From Savitreella phatthalungensis (taxonomy: Eukaryota): 64,000 nt of DNA. The position numbers and the translations under genes are program-made. Location: assembly GCA_051599415.1 (NCBI GenBank), contig AP039698.1, positions 62,001-126,000 on the forward strand, written 5' to 3'. Of this stretch, positions 5,359 through 33,534 are shown in pieces. Under the pieces are notes generated by a model that saw nothing but the letters and a program-made list of their open reading frames with translations, searched no databases and was not told the origin of the DNA. Every line of letters starts with the position of its first letter. The stretch's first letter is position 1.

Positions 5359-5556
5359 CTAGTCTAAGGCGACCTTGCCCTTCGCCCCCTTATGAGCCTT
5401 ACCGCGGCCGCCTGAGCCGCGAGAAGCTTTCTGCGAACGCTTGGTGCTCGCCCTATCCGAACCACTGGAAGGACCAGAGGAGCCTGCAGAAGTCGCTGTC
5501 ATGGGACGTGACGATACAGTGTCTGTCTCTGCTGCTGAGCTAAATTGATCATCGTC

Positions 5557-5587
<31 letters not shown>

Positions 5588-7287
5588 AGAGCTCGACCGG
5601 TAGGGGAATCGATCTCCGGTTCTGTGAGGGCGGTGGCTGTTGTCATGTCGTCAGAAGAATCAAAATCGACATCATCTTCGCCCGCGGCACTACTGGAAGC
5701 AGCAGACACTGGTCCATCGGCAGCAAGACCGGTGACTGAAGGCGGATTCCTAATAAGGTGCGACGGCTTCCTGGTCACGCGACCATTGTGGCGTGCATGT
5801 TGCGATGAGGGTGATGGGAGTGCGCTGGCACCGAGGGGGCGTGATCCGCCGGCTCCATTGAAACGGTCAACCGACCGACGGGTGGTGATAGATACCGAGG
5901 CAATGCTGCTCTGCCGTGACAACGTTCCAAGTCCGGGGGATGGACCGTCAAGCTCATAATCGCTTTCGCCGCCACTGGCAGTCGAGCCAGTTGTGCTAGC
6001 GCGGCCAACCCTGCTGGACTGTCCAGCCAGGACTTTGCCTCTCCGCGCGGATTGCTGCTGCCGCCGCGAGGAGCCGATGCGCTGTTCATCGTCAAGATTG
6101 AGCGCATCAAGGTCGTCGCTACTCTCCTCTTCACCGATATCGAAATCGTCCAATTCGACCGCGGCAGAGTCATTAAAGTGAGCCCAGCCATCAGCATCGT
6201 CTCCTTCCATATCGACAGGGTCATACTGGCCGTCGCTCCGAATCCTGCTTGCCCAGTCGCCCGACGGATCTCCCAAGGTGACGGTCTCATACTCGAATCG
6301 AGTGAGCTTGGTGGGATCGACGCGAGGTAGGAAGTATCTGCGCGCAACATAATAGCATCCGGCTGCGAGCATAGAGCCACCGATGAGATCAACGAAGTAG
6401 TGGTGCGTCAAATACATGGTCGACCACCAAATCCACAGGACGTATGCAAAGAAGTAGCGACGGAAGCGAGGGAAGCAATGGGCGAGGAATAACGCCTCGA
6501 TCGTTGCTGAACCAGAGTGCAGAGACGGGAATGCACCAAATACCATCGGAGAAGCCGTGAATGTACTCGTGTACGTCGATGTGCCGAACAACTGGTCTAT
6601 GCGGGCCAGACCTCCTGGAGAGCCCGGCATGCCATAATTGGCTGGAGCTAGGCCGTAGAGATTTTCATACCACGGTGGTGAGCATGGGAAGAGAATCTGG
6701 ATAATCACGCCGATGATGTTCATATAGCCAAAGCTGATGGCAAAGATTGGCACCGTGAGTGGCGGTCCGAAGATGAACATGACAGCGCTGCACGCGAATG
6801 GCGCCCCGAAGTGGATCACACCGTATGGGAGCCAACCGAGGACATCCAGCACGGGATTTGTGTGCTTTGCCAGGATGTTGGAGATGTTGGCACCGTACAG
6901 GATGTTCTCTAATGCTGGGAGGACACGCACTGAGATCGGCGGTCTGTAGTCTGCAGGGATGAAGCGTGCAGAGAAGAAGAAGATAAGCCAAGTGGCGACT
7001 GGCAGGAAAGGAAGGAAAAATTGTGAAAGGATGGGCACAAGCAAGAGTGTGCCAAGAAATGCAGCGAACGCGAGCTTGAATAGGACTGGCGCCTGTGCAA
7101 TGCAGAATGCGAAGAATAGCAGGAATGCGAGGAAGGCATAATGCAGATCGAGCTTTCGCCACTGATGCCGCCGCAGTCGTTCAATCGAAAGTTTTGGGTC
7201 GAAGCTGAAGTCGATCTTGGAGAGATCAGTCTTCGGCATCTGGTCGAACCGCGCTATTGCGCGTCTCAAGGAAGTCGTGATCGCCAT
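5359..7287 (-). CDS. AUR1: Inositol phosphorylceramide synthase catalytic subunit (aureobasidin A target) with long low-complexity C-tail
   Basis: RPPISVRVLPALENILYG, PPWYENLYGLAPANY.MPGSPGGLARID, FGAFPSLHSG, STMYLTHHYFVDLIGG. Confidence 0.96.
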
Positions 7288-8724: not shown

Positions 8725-9623
8725 GACGCTACAACTGTGAAAGGCACGGGCGTTACGGACAATGGATCCAGTCCAGCTGAACTGAGTCAATGTGATGATG
8801 TTGATTGTAGTAATGGTGCAAAACGTGTATGCGTGGTTGTCCTTGCGATCGGCCATCATTCATTCCAGTTGTCAAGATCACGCGACCAGAACACTCGAGA
8901 TCTGTCATCAGATGCATGGATGGCGTGCATCTTTGATTGTGATTAATTGATTGCCGTCGATCGAAGTAATTGCAAATCAGACTTTTTCATGCATCGATCA
9001 GATGGAAGGATTGGAAATTCCAGGTCATGACAATTCCGATGGATTCTGGACTCAGATTTAGGAACGGAATTTTCTTATTTGAATTAAAAATTTGATTATG
9101 GTTTTGATTTCCAGGAATATATCTTCTATTCCGCTATTGATGCATGTTCTATAGTCTCTTCAAAACCACAACCATCAAACATATCCGCACAGCCGCGACC
9201 GCCAGTAGCTTGAAGCACGCAGGCCAGCCAAGCATCTCTATTCACATATGTCCACATTCACATTCACACCCATATCCACATCCACCCGCCCACGGCCGTG
9301 ACAAACTTAAAGCACATGATCGAACGTACGTACAAACAGTACATGTGCTTAACTACATACTGAGGCAAATCACCCAAGATCTATTTCTGCAAAGCTCATC
9401 TTCTTTCGACCACACAACGTTCGTGAGTCTTTAGTTTTGAAAGGCTGCTGCCAACGATAGATCTCTCATCACGCTCTCTCGAACCTCCCACACACTGGCA
9501 GGACGTATCACATCCCTAAAGAGACTTACTGCCGTCTCATCAGTCCTCTCAGCTACAGCTCATACTCGTCAGAATAGCAGTAGTACTTCCGCTTCAGCAA
9601 GCGCTTCAGCTACTTCTTTAAGC

Positions 9624-10679
9624 ATGGCAAAGCACACACCAGTCATCATCATCGGCAGTGGACCGGCCGGTCACACTGCCGCAATCTACCTATCTCGCGC
9701 AGAGCTGAAGCCTCTGATGTTTGAAGGCATGCTAGCGAACGGGATTGCTGCAGGAGGTCAATTGACCACGACCACGGACGTAGAGAACTTCCCTGGATTT
9801 CCAAAGGGCATAGGAGGCACAGAGCTCATGGATGCCATGCGGGCGCAGTCGGAGCGATTTGGCACGACTATCGAGACAGAGACCATCGCAAAGGTAGATC
9901 TTTCCAAGCGTCCATTCAAATTGTGGCGTGAGGGCTTCGAAGACAAGGAAGACTCTCCTACAGATACATGCGATGCACTCATCATCGCCACAGGCGCCTC
10001 TGCCCGTAGGCTCCACTTGCCTGGAGAAGAGGAGTACTGGCAGAACGGCATCAGCGCTTGCGCCGTCTGCGATGGCGCCGTCCCAATCTTCCGCAACAAG
10101 CCACTTGCCGTCGTCGGAGGCGGTGACTCTGCTGCTGAGGAGGCTCTTTTCCTGACAAAGTATGGCTCAAAGGTGTACGTGCTCGTTAGGCGAGATGCCC
10201 TGCGTGCATCGGCAGTCATGTCAAAGCGCTTGCTAGCTCACCCAAAGGTCGAGGTCCTTTGGAACACCACCACAGAGTCCTGCCATGGCGACAAGGATTC
10301 CGGCCTGCTCACCCACTTGCGTATCAAGGATGTCAAGTCCGGCGAGTCCCGTGACCTCCAAGTGAACGGCCTGTTCTACGCCATCGGCCATGACCCAGCC
10401 ACCCAGCTCTTTGCAGAACAAGTCGATGTGGATGAGGACAAGTACATTCGTACGGTCGCCGGCACGACACAGACCTCTGTCGAAGGTGTCTTTGCCGCTG
10501 GAGATGTCCAGGACAAGAAGTACCGCCAGGCCATCACGTCCGCTGGCTCAGGCTGCATGGCTGCACTCGAGTGCGAGAAGTTCCTTGCAGACGAAGGTGA
10601 TGCGGCTCCAGCAATCGAGGAGCAGGCAGGCGACAAGGGAGGATCTTACTCAGAGAACCCCCTCGTCAAGGACACTTAG
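9624..10679 (+). CDS. TRR1: Thioredoxin reductase (low-MW type); possible non-AUG N-terminal extension from 9471
   Basis: [31 protein letters not shown], active site [18 protein letters not shown]. Confidence 0.98.
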
Positions 10680-10917
10680 GTCCTGCCACCTGGATTCCCA
10701 AGTTCCTATTTACAACCTATCACTCATACACAATATATCATGCATGGCGGGTCATTCATATATTGTGACTCCACATCCGTTCGTGGTGTAATGATCGGCC
10801 GGTCTAGTGCCATTCGTCCTTGTCTTTGTCATTAGATGTCGCGAGAGTACGAGTGTCATGACCAATGCAGCTGTCGCGTCTGTCAGAGGCAGGGAACTCA
10901 CTTTCCCGTGATCGTAT

Positions 10918-12955
10918 TCACAATTGTTCGTGTCCGTCCTCGGGACCTGCGTCCATGTCGAGTTTTGCGATTTCTCTCGCGAGATCAGCTTCACGATCCC
11001 TGACGATTGCCGAAGGCACCCTCGTTTCCGGGGACAACATGCCCGGCGGTCGATCTGGAGGGTTTCGGTCAGCATCATCATCCTGCGCTCCCTCGCGCTC
11101 GTCATCATGGCCGCTCGGCACGAGCTTGTCTGCCAAGTCAGCAGGCACACTTGCCGCAGACAGCTCAACAAGCCCGGCGTCTACAGGATCCAGGTAATTT
11201 GAAGGCTGCGGGGTCGACGGCCGGGATGAAACGGGCGTGGTCGATGGCAGGAGCAGCGAATTTGGAGAAGACGACGGAGGTTTCGGGGCCGGTGGTCGAA
11301 GGGCGCGGCCGCGTGAGCTGGCATTGACCGGTGGCGCAAGCCGAACGCTCGGAGCTGAGCTGGTCGTCGATGTCGGTGACGAGGCCCCCGATTCGGTCTC
11401 GCGTGATGATGTCGCTGGGCCCACTGCTACGCCATGGCGTGACTTTGGTGCAGGTGGAGCCGGCAAACGTGACGTCGTCGACGTCACCGCCGCATCAGCT
11501 GGAACACCTTCAAGCACTGTAGATAGCTCCTTCAGGGCTACCGCCGATGCAGACGTCTTGCAGCCAGGCTTGAGCCCGCCAACCGGTGGAGGTGGTGGAG
11601 GCGGTGGTTTTGATCTAGCCACAGAGCTGATCGAGTCAAACGACCTGATCGAAGCTTGAGAAGTGGAATCGACCTGGCCGAGACTGATTCCGAGGAGAGA
11701 TGCTTTGGATTTTGCTTCTTTTGCAGCACTACTATTGCTGCCAGATGACGTAAATGAAGGACGAGGGATTTTTAGTCGGCGCTTCCGCGGAGGCAATAGC
11801 CAGGGTACCGTGAGACATCTTGCAAGCAGCCGCACCGTCGTCGCACCGACCGGGCCAAAGTGAGAACATTCCTTGTTCAACGAGTTCAGCAGTTTCACAA
11901 GCTCGGCAGCCTTGTAGTGTGGCGAATTGCGCAGCTGTGTATTGGTGAGCAAAGGATGAAGGACGCGCAGATAAGTATGTCGGAGAGATTCATGCTCTTG
12001 AGGTAAGTCGTAAAGCTCCCGTATGAAGACGTCCACAAGGACATGCAAATCATTCGTGAAGAAGTACTCGTGCGTCGTCGGATTTGTGAAGATTAGAAAG
12101 AGCTGTTTGAGAATTAACAGCTGCAGTATCGGATCGCGCTCCCTGTTGAGCATTCGAATAACGTTCTCGCCGAACGCTTTGAACCGCGATCCATGATCGG
12201 ATAAGACTTTAACAATGGCATTATCGACTGCTGTTGCACCGCGCTGCTGCTCGAGGGCTGGTCGTTGATCGGTGCTCTGACGAGAAAAAGGCTCCTGTGA
12301 ACCTGATGGCAGAGCTGCGACCATGTACTGCTCGTTGAGCGCGAGCATGAGTTTGATGGTGATGTATGAGAATGGATCGGATTCGTCACGCGCAAGCTCG
12401 ACGTTGCGTAGCAGAAACCAACTGAACTCTGTGTCAAAGCAAAGCAGGTCGTCACGCGATATCTTCTGGGCCCGGCAGAGCTCATAAAGGCTGACAAGGA
12501 TGAGCCGGGTGAAGCGATAGGCATCCGCAGCATTGTCTTTGGCCGCGGCCACCAGATTCTCTACCACGCCAGCGCGGCTCATTAAGCGAAATGTCCGAGC
12601 GTGCTTGCGACCATCAAGCAGCAGCATGTACAGCACTATGTAGCCACGAGCACCAGTACCATCTTCAGCCTCGAAAGTGATAAGAAGCTGACGATAAGCG
12701 TCTGTATATTGTGCGTAGTGTTCACTGTCGAGCACCATACGACAGCAGCGCTCGACATCGCTGTCCTTGTCCAGGTGATCAGGGCCATATGTCGAGGCGA
12801 AGGAAAGGAAGCGCTCAAGCTTGGGCTCGACTGTTGATTCATCGTCGTCTGGTCTTGGAGCTGTTATCTCGCTCAGGCCTGTAAAGATTAGCCAAGCTCC
12901 AATGCACGCGGTCAGCCATCTTACCCGTCCAGAAGAGCCCTTGCGTGTGATCCAT
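10918..12955 (-). CDS. LDB17: Ldb17/Dip1 (WISH/DIP/SPIN90 family) Arp2/3 activator; exons 12955-12925 and 12878-10918
   Basis: LNEQYM, FGENVIRMLNRE, EYFFTNDLHVLVDVFIRELYDLP, LRHTYLRVLHPLL and a Pro-rich tail. Splicing a 46-nt intron restores MDHTQGLFWTGLSEI... in frame. Confidence 0.88.
12879..12924 (-). other. Spliceosomal intron in LDB17 (46 nt)
   Basis: GTAAGA donor, GCTAAT branch site, TTTACAG acceptor; frame-restoring. Confidence 0.88.
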
Positions 12956-13298
12956 TGGCGCTCACTATGTGCGTTGCATTAGGGAGGAGGACATGCGCAT
13001 CATCTAACCTCCCGCTGCGCGCCAGCGTTTACCACGACGTTGATCACGTTGAGCGCTCGCGAAGCTCTTCCTGGCTGATGACCACGATGACAGTGCTGAT
13101 ATTGGTATTGATGATTACAGTGACCGGCTGCATAAATTCCACGGGATCGATCTTGAGCAATGCATCTAGCTGCAAACAGTTTTTGGACGATATGATAGGA
13201 CGTGCAGACTGGCTGACACGCATACCGGAGAAGGAGAAGAAGAAACAGACCGAAGCTCATCAGACGCGAAGGCTTCCGCATAGCGCGCGAAGGCCACC

Positions 13299-30556: not shown

Positions 30557-31176
30557 GCATGTCTATTGAACATAGTGAACCAGGGAATCTATTCGCGTTG
30601 GGGTCTCGACTGTAATCATCCACTCTCTCGATGTCACTCTGCTCTGTGCCTCACTTCGAGGTCGGAGCTGAAGATTCCGACTTTCCCTCATTCATCTCAA
30701 TGTACTCAAGATTTTGTGAATCCCGTGCTTGATCGCCTAATTAGTGCAATGAATGGCAGTGATTTGTTTACTTTTAGATCGGTTGCCTTTGTTTTGGCTA
30801 ATCTAATGCAGGTGAAAAGCTTATTCCCGATGCCGGTTCAGATTGTCGGAACCCGCAGCGGTGCAACGGTCGGATGAGCTTCTCTACGGGCCTAGAGGGG
30901 CACCCTAACCCGGGGTGACCTGTTTATTGACCTAGCTCCTGTTGCTGCGTCGCTGACACTTGCCAACCTCCATACCGACACTACCAGCCCACCACCAAGA
31001 TCGTCCTCACCACCCCCTTACCAAGGTCTCAGATCCCTGACAGTCAGCCACCAGCCTGCAGCGGAGGTGACACAATCGGCTGTCAAAAGAATCTAAGAGT
31101 CGACGTCGTCGAGATCTGTCAGAATCGACCTTTCGACCTTGAGCTTCCGCTACGCCAAGCCCTTTTCTCGAACACT

Positions 31177-33534
31177 ATGATGCCTATGGCTGGAACTGCC
31201 GCAGCCCCTGTGGCAGGCTATAGCATGTTCGCGGCCAATATGCCAACAGCACACCATCAGCAACAGCAACAAAGCCGTGCTCAACAGCAGCAAGTGGCCT
31301 ACTCAGCCCTTCAGCAGCAGTATGGCGATCAATCAAGCCAAGCTGCCTCATACGCTGTGACAGCCTACCAGTTGCAACAGCAACAGCAGCAGCAGCAGCA
31401 CATGCTGGCTGCGTACATGGCTCAACAGCAACAGCAGCAACAACAACAACATCATCATCAAACACAGCAGCAGAGACCATCTGCTGTCTCCAACCGGTCA
31501 CAAGCACAAGCGGTCGGAACTCTAGCCAATGCAGCGACGGCGTATAATTATGCTGCAGCGATGTCAGCAGCAGCTGTTGCTGGGAACTACGTACCATCAG
31601 CCGAGGATATCTACCCGGCCACACTACCGAGCCCGCCAACGTCTCCACAACCACAATTTTCATGGCAAGTGACGATGGTTGATGAGCACAACCCGACAGA
31701 GACCCATACCTACCACGACATGGGCGGCAGCAGCATGCACAGAGAATTGTCAGCTTCGTCTCTCGGACCAGCGTCAAGCGCTGCTGCCGCTGCGTCTACT
31801 GCACTTGCTGCAACCAAGGCTCGACGGACTCAGATTCCCGCAGAGACGATGGCAAACTTGATCCGCGGCCCTGACCCGGTTGACAATAAATACGTCTGCC
31901 TGTACGGCGGATGCATGCGACGATTTGGACGCAAGTATAACATCCAGTCCCACATCCAGACTCACTTGTCCGATCGGCCTTTCCGATGTGGTGTGTGCTC
32001 TGCAGGATTCGTGCGCCGTCATGACCTCGTCAGACACGCACGCATCCACGCCGACGGGAAAGAGTTCATGTGTGCGTGTGGAAAAGGGTTCTCGCGTACC
32101 GATGCCCTGAATCGGCACAAGCAGCGGCAGATCTGCGAAGGCGGCAGAATCGAAGCTGCTGCCATGGCCGTCGCTCGTGCAAATGCAGCAGTCGCCAGCA
32201 AGGTCGTTCAACAGCACCAGCAGACTGAGCGAGCGACGCAAAAGACGGCAGCGACGAAGAAGTCTTCGAAGGGTGGCCGTGTGGATAAGGGCGAAGCAAT
32301 GTCTCGTGACGCCTCTGCGCAATCTACGGGAACCGATGACTCATCTCACTCGAGCTCTGCAGCCTCTGCGGCATCTGTCCTCGATGCATATACCCGTCAG
32401 CGCCAGCAGCATACTGCCCAGATGCACATGGCAGCGCACGTGACCGCCGCCTTGGCGTATGGCGTCCCTCCACCGGACGACCTCGACGACGTGCACGGCC
32501 AAGCGAGCGGTGGCGTTGTAGGAGGGCTTCCTTCAGAGGCGAGAGCCATGGATCCAAGGTCGTTGCAGATGCAGCGTGGTCCATCATCGTCCTCAGCGTC
32601 CAGCCGTCGAGCGGCTGCTGCAGCCGCCGCAGCTGTCTCTCTCTCACGAGCGGCCTCACCAGCAGACTTCTACACAGCGCCATCTTCACAGACACTGCAT
32701 CACAGCGGCAACTACCACCACACCCAGCACATCCCACCATCTCTGATCTCGCCAACAGACACGCTCCATCCGGCAGAATTCGATATCGATGCGCAGATGC
32801 GGGCGATGGCAGAGGTACCTGCAGTCCATGTGTCGCTGACTCGACCGCCATCGTCGTCTGATGCGACGCGCGGTGCCGGACGGAAAGGGCGGGGTGGCAA
32901 GGCTGTGGGCGGACAGCGAACTGCAGTGTCCATGTCACCGTCGCTCGCGTACGTGTCGCCGCCGCTGGCTGCGACGGAAGCCGGTCCAGCGTGCACGGAC
33001 GACCCGGCCACAGGCTGGATGACCGACCTGCACACGGCCGCCGCCTCCATGGGTATGCTCCGCACCACCACCGCCACCACCGCAATCTCGAACGACCACG
33101 AGGACGATGATGGACCAAACGGTCCACTCATGGCCAACAGCTTTGCTGAAGCACTCGCAGAGTACCACGGTGCCGGCACAACGCACGATGACGAAAATGA
33201 CAGTGATGAGGACGACGACCACGTCGGGATTTCGCCGCCGTTTGTCACGGCAACCGGAACAGTGAGCACGCTGCGCTCGCGCGACAGAGTTGTGGGTGAT
33301 GATGAGGTTGTGGTTGGAGGTGATGATGGCGAATTGTCTGAGGAAGAGCGTCACAGGGTCGCCGTCATGCGCGCACTGTCGGAATCGCCTAGGCGAGCGA
33401 CGTCCAGGATGGGAGGTCTGTTAGGGGTAGGCGTGGTGGCCGCTGGGGGAAAACGCGCTGGCGGCATAGCCAAAGGCGCAGGAGGCAAAGGCCGGAGAGG
33501 GTACGCGGCTGCAGGTGTAGCAGCTCGCGTATGA
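31177..33534 (+). CDS. C2H2 zinc-finger transcription factor, Ace2/Swi5-like
   Basis: GPDPVDNKYVCLYGGCMRRFGRKYNIQSHIQTHLSDRPFRC..C...FVRRHDLVRHARIH...C.CGKGFSRTDAL.RH....ICEGG; polyQ N-terminus. Confidence 0.88.
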   Translation: MMPMAGTAAAPVAGYSMFAANMPTAHHQQQQQSRAQQQQVAYSALQQQYGDQSSQAASYAVTAYQLQQQQQQQQHMLAAYMAQQQQQQQQQHHHQTQQQRPSAVSNRSQAQAVGTLANAATAYNYAAAMSAAAVAGNYVPSAEDIYPATLPSPPTSPQPQFSWQVTMVDEHNPTETHTYHDMGGSSMHRELSASSLGPASSAAAAASTALAATKARRTQIPAETMANLIRGPDPVDNKYVCLYGGCMRRFGRKYNIQSHIQTHLSDRPFRCGVCSAGFVRRHDLVRHARIHADGKEFMCACGKGFSRTDALNRHKQRQICEGGRIEAAAMAVARANAAVASKVVQQHQQTERATQKTAATKKSSKGGRVDKGEAMSRDASAQSTGTDDSSHSSSAASAASVLDAYTRQRQQHTAQMHMAAHVTAALAYGVPPPDDLDDVHGQASGGVVGGLPSEARAMDPRSLQMQRGPSSSSASSRRAAAAAAAAVSLSRAASPADFYTAPSSQTLHHSGNYHHTQHIPPSLISPTDTLHPAEFDIDAQMRAMAEVPAVHVSLTRPPSSSDATRGAGRKGRGGKAVGGQRTAVSMSPSLAYVSPPLAATEAGPACTDDPATGWMTDLHTAAASMGMLRTTTATTAISNDHEDDDGPNGPLMANSFAEALAEYHGAGTTHDDENDSDEDDDHVGISPPFVTATGTVSTLRSRDRVVGDDEVVVGGDDGELSEEERHRVAVMRALSESPRRATSRMGGLLGVGVVAAGGKRAGGIAKGAGGKGRRGYAAAGVAARV

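What the first reader, a model, noticed from the sequence alone, without database searches (positions are those of the whole stretch)
9471..9623. TRR1 carries a hidden ACG-initiated mitochondrial-type presequence
Seen: the frame is open from 9441 to the ATG at 9624 with no AUG. ACG at 9471 (ctcatcACGc, A at -3) gives (M)[51 protein letters not shown]. These 51 aa contain no acidic residue, have 5 R/K, are S/T/L/A-rich and include an R-x-x|S-S type cleavage region. Known: non-AUG (often ACG) initiation produces mitochondrial isoforms in fungi, and budding yeast instead uses a TRR2 paralogue. A possible 38-nt intron at 9423-9460 (GTGAGT...TAG) supplies no in-frame AUG. An alternative model splices the same-frame upstream ORF from ATG 9144 (MFYSLFKTTTIKHIRTAA...) at 9423 to CAG 9572.
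Basis: partly seen in the sequence, partly recalled or inferred. Interest (0 to 1): 0.7.

Follow-up and report, generated by a model that had tools for sequence, protein, structure and literature searches.

The report
Hidden mitochondrial leader on thioredoxin reductase
This fungus has a single thioredoxin reductase gene, and it probably makes a second, mitochondrial form by starting translation at a non-AUG codon upstream of the usual start; this is a known trick, and many other fungi seem to use it at the same gene.

Summary
Observation confirmed. The frame is open and AUG-free from 9441 to ATG 9624; ACG 9471 opens 51 codons with no D/E and 5 R/K. The genome, Taphrinomycete-like, shows one thioredoxin reductase. 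Taphrina-like relatives carry a related presequence started by a weak AUG; their profile matches window 9519-9560 (E 0.003, probability only 10%; four controls E 0.23-0.73). Of 27 related loci read, 12 lack an upstream AUG but have CTG, GTG or ACG with A at -3 at the head of a similar leader; two share the window's CATCACGC; 7 have an upstream AUG; 8 are unclear. This genome's thioredoxin, glutathione reductase and AlaRS also have AUG-less leaders. Best reading: leaky scanning gives a minor mitochondrial and a major cytosolic form. There are no RNA, ribosome or import data. Known kind: S. cerevisiae Trr1 is already listed among such proteins (PMC6582344), and this scan noted the same in another fungus (e1-7709892). 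A 2025 preprint still says Neurospora seems to lack a mitochondrial reductase.

The parts
9441..9623 (+). AUG-free open frame (61 codons) in front of the thioredoxin reductase ATG; holds the candidate presequence
9471..9473 (+). ACG, favoured near-cognate start (C-4, A-3, C-1); gives a 51-residue extension
   Evidence: the same octamer CATCACGC heads the leader in L010 and L024; initiation inferred
9495..9497 (+). CTG, rival or additional start (CACA-CTG-GC; A-3, G+4); gives a 43-residue extension
   Evidence: the Taphrina-like AUG aligns to codon 9504; CTG or GTG heads the leader in 10 related loci
9519..9560 (+). Block [14 protein letters not shown], which matches the AUG-led Taphrina-like presequence (KRLSLISSAILSS)
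   Evidence: hhalign E 0.0032, probability 9.9%; controls E 0.23-0.73; pairwise BLASTP not significant, E 4.8
9567..9581 (+). R-Q-N-S-S, possible processing region, followed by an S/A/T-rich spacer
   Evidence: sequence; no predictor was run; the residue before the proposed cut is not the usual F/Y/L (motif recalled)
9624..10679 (+). Low-molecular-weight thioredoxin reductase, 351 aa, uninterrupted ORF; ATG in strong context (AGC-ATG-G); cytosolic form
   Evidence: TIGR01292 379 bits, over the cut-off of 343; single copy
9423..9460 (+). Possible 38-nt leader intron (GTGAGT...TAG); unproven; supplies no AUG
   Evidence: no CTRAY; the ATGs that splicing would bring into frame (9316, 9343) stop at 9363
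9144..9434 (+). Same-frame upstream ORF of 96 aa; probably not part of the gene
   Evidence: ATG has T at -3; no Pfam match; no match to the presequence profile

Best explanation
One mRNA gives two thioredoxin reductases by leaky scanning. A minority of ribosomes start at a near-cognate codon read as Met: most likely ACG 9471 (about 55% of this reading), otherwise CTG 9495 (about 30%), or both. They make a precursor with a basic, acid-free presequence that is imported into mitochondria and cleaved. Most ribosomes pass on to ATG 9624, which is in strong context, and make the cytosolic enzyme. The mitochondrial form would reduce a mitochondrial form of the genome's one classical thioredoxin, which has the same kind of AUG-less leader. 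Shown: sequence, copy number and the pattern in relatives. Inferred: transcription of the leader, initiation, import and cleavage.
For: One TRR in G000; the only other hit is glutathione reductase. Composition. Taphrina-like proteins begin MLRGSKRL, and L027 shows a real ATG with T at -3 followed by a strong ATG. The profile of 9 such leaders matches 9519-9560 but not four control stretches. 12 of 27 related loci read have no upstream ATG but ACG (L010, L024), CTG (L004, L020, L037, L041, L045, L047, L069, L079) or GTG (L042, L051) with A at -3 at the head of the leader. In the KLF/KVF group similarity starts at that codon. L042 and L079 have the same leader but GTG versus CTG. In G000, thioredoxin, glutathione reductase and the single AlaRS have AUG-less leaders, and GlyRS has a weak AUG then a strong AUG. 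Precedent: PMC7049704 section 20, PMC6582344 section 13.
Against: The similarity to the Taphrina leader is weak: BLASTP E 4.8, hhalign probability 9.9%, low-complexity S/T/A sequence, and only four controls. A homologue search on the extension found nothing at E 0.01 or better among 530 candidates. The 11 codons from 9471 to 9503 have no counterpart in Taphrina. The window's leader does not align with the KLF-type leaders. Open runs of this length occur in 2 of 19 other window ORFs. The transcription start is unknown, and upstream ATGs (9248, 9316, 9343 and others) would matter if it lies far upstream. No DNA could be read for the two closest relatives (P0004, P0005). No targeting predictor was available. 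In S. cerevisiae, Trr1 is also reported to reach the intermembrane space by an unconventional route.
Confidence: 0.8

Rival explanations
1. The leader is a relic. The ancestor had the weak AUG seen in Taphrina, this lineage lost it, and the stretch is now untranslated 5' leader; mitochondrial thioredoxin is served another way (glutathione system, or import without a presequence).
For: Weak similarity; the Taphrina AUG position holds CGT; signal-independent import of yeast Trr1 has been reported (passages).
Against: The frame is still open and acid-free although the enzymes are only about 80% identical. Two near-cognates in good context are present. Near-cognate starts head the leader in 12 other loci. 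Glutathione reductase and thioredoxin show the same layout in this genome.
Confidence: 0.08
2. The leader is translated from a near-cognate codon, but the choice of isoform is made mainly by alternative transcription starts: a long mRNA for the mitochondrial form and a short one starting after 9497 for the cytosolic form.
For: PMC7049704 section 20 reports alternative starts backing up codon choice at some synthetase genes. The transcription start here is unknown.
Against: A near-cognate start is leaky in itself, so one mRNA suffices. Intron-free related contigs (L020, L037, L041, L045, L051; inferred to come from RNA) extend past the near-cognate codon.
Confidence: 0.06
3. An upstream exon supplies an AUG: ATG 9144 spliced from 9423 to CAG 9572 or AAG 9521, or from GTACGT 9326 to TAG 9460.
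For: All three joins keep the frame (frame arithmetic). The first 25 residues from ATG 9144 are basic and acid-free. Introns probably interrupt the leader in some other loci (L017, L066).
Against: No CTRAY on the + strand in 9100-9630, whereas a probable leader intron in this genome's glutathione reductase has GT...CTAAT...CAG. The 9572 join deletes the conserved block. The products would carry 61-93 extra residues with a His/Pro tract that no relative shows.
Confidence: 0.04
4. ACG 9471 is an assembly error for ATG.
For: One base differs; raw reads could not be checked.
Against: An ATG in this strong context would capture most initiation. ACG stands in the same octamer in L010 and L024. The predicted proteins of the closest relatives (P0004, P0005) also start at the second Met.
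Confidence: 0.02

Closest known systems
S. cerevisiae proteins with non-AUG mitochondria-targeting extensions (MT-NTE), Trr1 among them (Monteuuis 2019, PMC6582344; passages and section 13 read)
   Same: Same enzyme family, upstream near-cognate start, predicted presequence; Trr1 was among 18 candidates examined by fractionation and all were detected in mitochondria.
   Different: S. cerevisiae also has a dedicated mitochondrial TRR2, whereas here the extension is the only visible route. The yeast codon and length are in a figure or supplement I could not see, and the passages read do not show the Trr1 extension itself tested by mutation.
DualNCC / DualAUG aminoacyl-tRNA synthetases of fungi (Wallace 2020, PMC7049704; passages and section 20 read)
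   Same: Single-copy gene; weak AUG (U at -3) or near-cognate codon (ACG, AUU), then a presequence, then a strong AUG; switches between weak AUG and near-cognate across lineages, as between L027 and the window.
   Different: Described for synthetases; 'thioredoxin' does not occur in that paper's main text; those cases have ribosome profiling, this one has none.
Non-AUG isoforms of yeast Gpx3 (PMC5368413) and fungal 6-phosphogluconate dehydrogenase (PMC7214817)
   Same: Redox enzymes given an organelle signal by a non-AUG extension (search listings; one passage of the second).
   Different: Targets are the intermembrane space and the peroxisome; the extension here is longer and looks like a matrix presequence.

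Membership tests
Low-molecular-weight thioredoxin reductase (TIGR01292) | Whole-protein score over the curated cut-off; CxxC motif | tested here: met
   379.4 bits against 343.45; CAVC in the ORF
Near-cognate-initiated dual-localised gene (DualNCC) | Single gene copy for an activity needed in both compartments | tested here: met
   One TRR; second hit is glutathione reductase; completeness of the assembly is unknown
Near-cognate-initiated dual-localised gene (DualNCC) | In-frame near-cognate codon in good context, no AUG, upstream of a strong AUG | tested here: met
   ACG 9471 and CTG 9495 with A at -3; ATG 9624 with A-3 and G+4
Near-cognate-initiated dual-localised gene (DualNCC) | Extension conserved in relatives | tested here: met
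Near-cognate-initiated dual-localised gene (DualNCC) | Extension scores as a mitochondrial presequence | tested here: inconclusive
   Composition fits (0 D/E, 5 R/K); MitoFates and TargetP are not among the tools
Near-cognate-initiated dual-localised gene (DualNCC) | Transcript starts upstream of the codon and ribosomes translate the extension | not testable with these tools
   No reads were available to lay on the locus
Near-cognate-initiated dual-localised gene (DualNCC) | Mitochondrial pool depends on the codon | not testable with these tools
   Needs a reporter or import assay

The most novel reading that the evidence does not exclude
Dual targeting of the single thioredoxin reductase by a leaky upstream start is an old, widespread and mostly unannotated feature of Dikarya, with the start switching among weak AUG, CUG, GUG and ACG. 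It would supply the mitochondrial reductase said to be missing in filamentous fungi. In this fungus the reductase, the thioredoxin and glutathione reductase would all reach mitochondria through non-AUG starts, tying mitochondrial thiol defence to the stringency of start-codon selection.
Probability: 0.55. Interest if true: 0.62.

Novelty: new member of a known kind. Interest (0 to 1): 0.45.

Why it matters
It corrects the gene model and explains how a fungus with one thioredoxin reductase gene could serve a mitochondrial thioredoxin. The wider pattern touches a stated gap: a 2025 preprint (10.1101/2025.04.24.650474, passages) finds a predicted mitochondrial thioredoxin in Neurospora crassa but says the system 'seems to lack a mitochondrial TR'. 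The conserved AAA-CTG/GTG-TT start in Pezizomycotina-like loci gives a single codon to test. The mechanism itself is well known, so surprise is moderate.

Tried and rejected
RNA runs: none was listed for 8800-10800, so no reads were laid; this is no evidence either way. A homologue search on the extension alone gave no hit among 530 candidates. Pfam gave nothing for the extension or the upstream ORF. RNA structure downstream of ACG is no more stable than shuffles (z -0.20), so no hairpin-assisted initiation is claimed. CATCACGC is not rare in itself: 4 in the window against 4.2 expected, and in 11 of 82 loci; only its position at the head of the leader in L010 and L024 counts, and those two are related to each other. 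Splice models were rejected for lack of a branch site and loss of the conserved block. L012, L017 and L066 look AUG-less but were not counted: L017 and L066 show branch-plus-AG signals inside the leader, and L012 was unclear. The script machine failed after one script, so no genome-wide control or helical-moment calculation was made. Supplements could not be read; the yeast Trr1 codon may be listed there. Nine literature searches turned up no paper on a non-AUG mitochondrial thioredoxin reductase in Taphrinomycotina or filamentous fungi; I saw only the top 10-25 listings of each, and the library lacks most subscription journals. The K. marxianus preprint does not mention TRR1 in its main text. 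The Aspergillus PrxA paper showed no TrxR targeting statement in 12 of 13 passages shown.

Full report
Observation. Window 9624-10679 is an uninterrupted 351-aa thioredoxin reductase ORF (TIGR01292 379 bits, cut-off 343). The frame is open from 9441 with no ATG for 61 codons. It missed other in-frame near-cognates: ATC 9468 and ATC 9507 (C at -3) and CTG 9495 (CACA-CTG-GC). The length alone proves little: 2 of the other 19 window ORFs of 300 aa or more have 61 or more codons between stop and first ATG (counted by hand; upstream exons were not excluded for those two).

Organism and copy number. The genome has 12.7 Mb in 27 contigs. The closest named relatives are Protomyces lactucae-debilis (80%) and a cluster holding Taphrina deformans, so it is Taphrinomycete-like. 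The genome search gave two hits: this gene and, at 28%, glutathione reductase. No TRR2-like paralogue was found; completeness of the assembly is not given.

Closest relatives. Of the ten best hits (the first is this protein), P0002, P0003, P0006 and P0007 carry a leader beginning MLR(G/A)(S/T)KRL, as do 5 of 8 further members of the Taphrina cluster. P0004, P0005, P0008 and P0009 are predicted from the second Met, and P0010 starts inside the enzyme; I had no DNA for these. L027 (82% identical) shows the DNA: an ATG with T at -3, 37 codons of leader, then an ATG with A at -3. This is the weak-then-strong AUG layout of PMC7049704 (section 20). The leader aligns without gaps to window codons from 9519: 11 of 30 identical, BLASTP E 4.8, not significant. 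A profile of 9 such leaders matches 9519-9560 at E 0.0032, probability 9.9%. The AUG-less leaders of this genome's thioredoxin, glutathione reductase and AlaRS, and the upstream ORF, score E 0.59, 0.23, 0.73 and 0.49. The match is modest but specific and in the expected place. The Taphrina AUG falls on window codon 9504, 3 codons after CTG 9495 and 11 after ACG 9471.

Wider fungi. One search returned 80 loci; I read the upstream frame of 27 that looked fungal, skipping bacterial-like ones, near-duplicates and short contigs. Seven have an in-frame upstream ATG (L011, L019, L021, L022, L023, L027, L082). Twelve have none, but a near-cognate with A at -3 at the head of a basic, acid-poor leader: ACG in L010 and L024; CTG in L004, L020, L037, L041, L045, L047, L069 and L079; GTG in L042 and L051. 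Eight are unclear: L026 (open, ATC-ATT), L012, L017, L066 (the last two probably with introns), L015 (contig edge), and L005, L014, L055 (frame broken just upstream). In the KLF/KVF group, Pezizomycotina-like by resemblance to named hits, similarity begins at AAA-(C/G)TG-TT and is absent before it. L042 and L079 have the same leader but GTG versus CTG, as expected if the codon is read as Met. L010 and L024 begin with CATCACGC, the same octamer as window 9467-9474; they are related to each other and count as one independent case. These loci are not independent samples, and their leaders do not align with the window's. They show that the layout is general, not that the sequence is shared.

Same genome. 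Twelve thioredoxin-domain matches were found; I read 8 of the 12 loci, and the other four are two-domain ORFs of 573 and 753 aa. Only L085 is a stand-alone 104-aa thioredoxin (TIGR01068 over cut-off). It has 56 AUG-free codons upstream, with ACG-ATA followed by CTCTCTCG, the eight bases that also follow ACG 9471, and then a basic, acid-free stretch. Glutathione reductase has 42 AUG-free codons with two CTG codons with A at -3 and ends in RAFSTASRR. The single AlaRS has 66 AUG-free codons. GlyRS has a weak ATG (T at -3), 24 codons, then a strong ATG. These genes were picked because I expected them to need both compartments, so they are not a blind sample.

Splicing. Joins 9423 to 9572, 9423 to 9521 and 9326 to 9460 keep the frame of ATG 9144 (arithmetic). 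No CTRAY lies on the + strand from 9100 to 9630, and the first join deletes the conserved block. The 38-nt intron 9423-9460 remains possible and brings no AUG.

Mechanism. Scanning ribosomes meet ACG 9471, then CTG 9495, then ATG 9624. A small share start at a near-cognate and make a precursor. L9, I13, L16, L19 and V22/L26 of the ACG form could build one helix face with R12, K17 and R18 beside it (read by eye). V-S-S-V-L fits the hydrophobic-x-x-hydrophobic-hydrophobic Tom20 motif (recalled) and is kept in Taphrina. Cleavage near R-Q-N-S-S is a guess. ACG is favoured because it comes first, gives a Leu-Ser-Arg start like the thioredoxin leader, and shares its octamer with L010 and L024. CTG is favoured by context, by nearness to the Taphrina AUG and by its use in most other loci. 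Initiation, import and cleavage are all inferred.

What is known. PMC7049704 (passages and section 20) describes ACG- and AUU-initiated synthetase isoforms and repeated switches between weak AUG and near-cognate codons. Preprint 10.1101/2025.04.24.650474 (passages) reports one N. crassa reductase without an N-terminal signal and says a mitochondrial one seems to be lacking; I did not read the N. crassa locus. Preprint 10.1101/2021.06.22.449413 (listing and two passages) reports unconventional import of yeast Trr1 into the intermembrane space. Nine searches (top listings only) found no report for Taphrinomycotina or filamentous fungi. This scan noted a GTG-initiated case in another fungus (e1-7709892), which I could not check and do not count as support.

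Verdict. The feature is real and probably functional (0.8). It is a new member of a known kind. Its main value is the broad, testable pattern across fungal thioredoxin reductases. Interest 0.45.

Noticed in passing
L085:1318-1800 (G000:C27:304517-307801): The only stand-alone thioredoxin found has a 56-codon AUG-free upstream frame with ACG-ATA followed by the same eight bases as follow ACG 9471; a likely hidden mitochondrial isoform.
   Followed up: partly
L002:794-969 (G000:C3:552293-555766): Glutathione reductase has an AUG-less presequence-like leader with two CTG codons in good context, and a probable 5' leader intron (GT at 794, CTAAT, CAG at 848-850).
   Followed up: partly
L102:1255-1452 and L103 (minus strand, about 3501-3425): The single AlaRS has a 66-codon AUG-free leader; GlyRS has a weak ATG, a 24-codon basic leader and a strong ATG.
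   Followed up: partly
L037, L041, L042, L045, L047, L051, L069, L079: Pezizomycotina-like thioredoxin reductases keep AAA-CTG/GTG-TT at the head of an unannotated leader; L042 and L079 differ at this codon while the leader is the same.
   Followed up: yes
window 9326-9333 and 2720-2727: Palindrome GTACGTAC occurs twice in the window (0.24 expected; 3 of 100 shuffles reach 2); similar GTACGTAC text lies upstream of glutathione reductase. Possibly a promoter element.
   Followed up: no
window 12738-12978 (minus) and 30931-31177 (plus): Two other long ORFs have 80 and 82 ATG-free codons before their first ATG; upstream exon or non-AUG start not examined.
   Followed up: no
L095:1459-2139: A 1-Cys-type peroxiredoxin (label recalled) has only 9 open codons before its ATG and no visible presequence.
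   Followed up: no
window 5359-7287 (minus): Neighbouring gene looks like inositol phosphorylceramide synthase AUR1 (label recalled) with a long low-complexity C-terminal tail.
   Followed up: no
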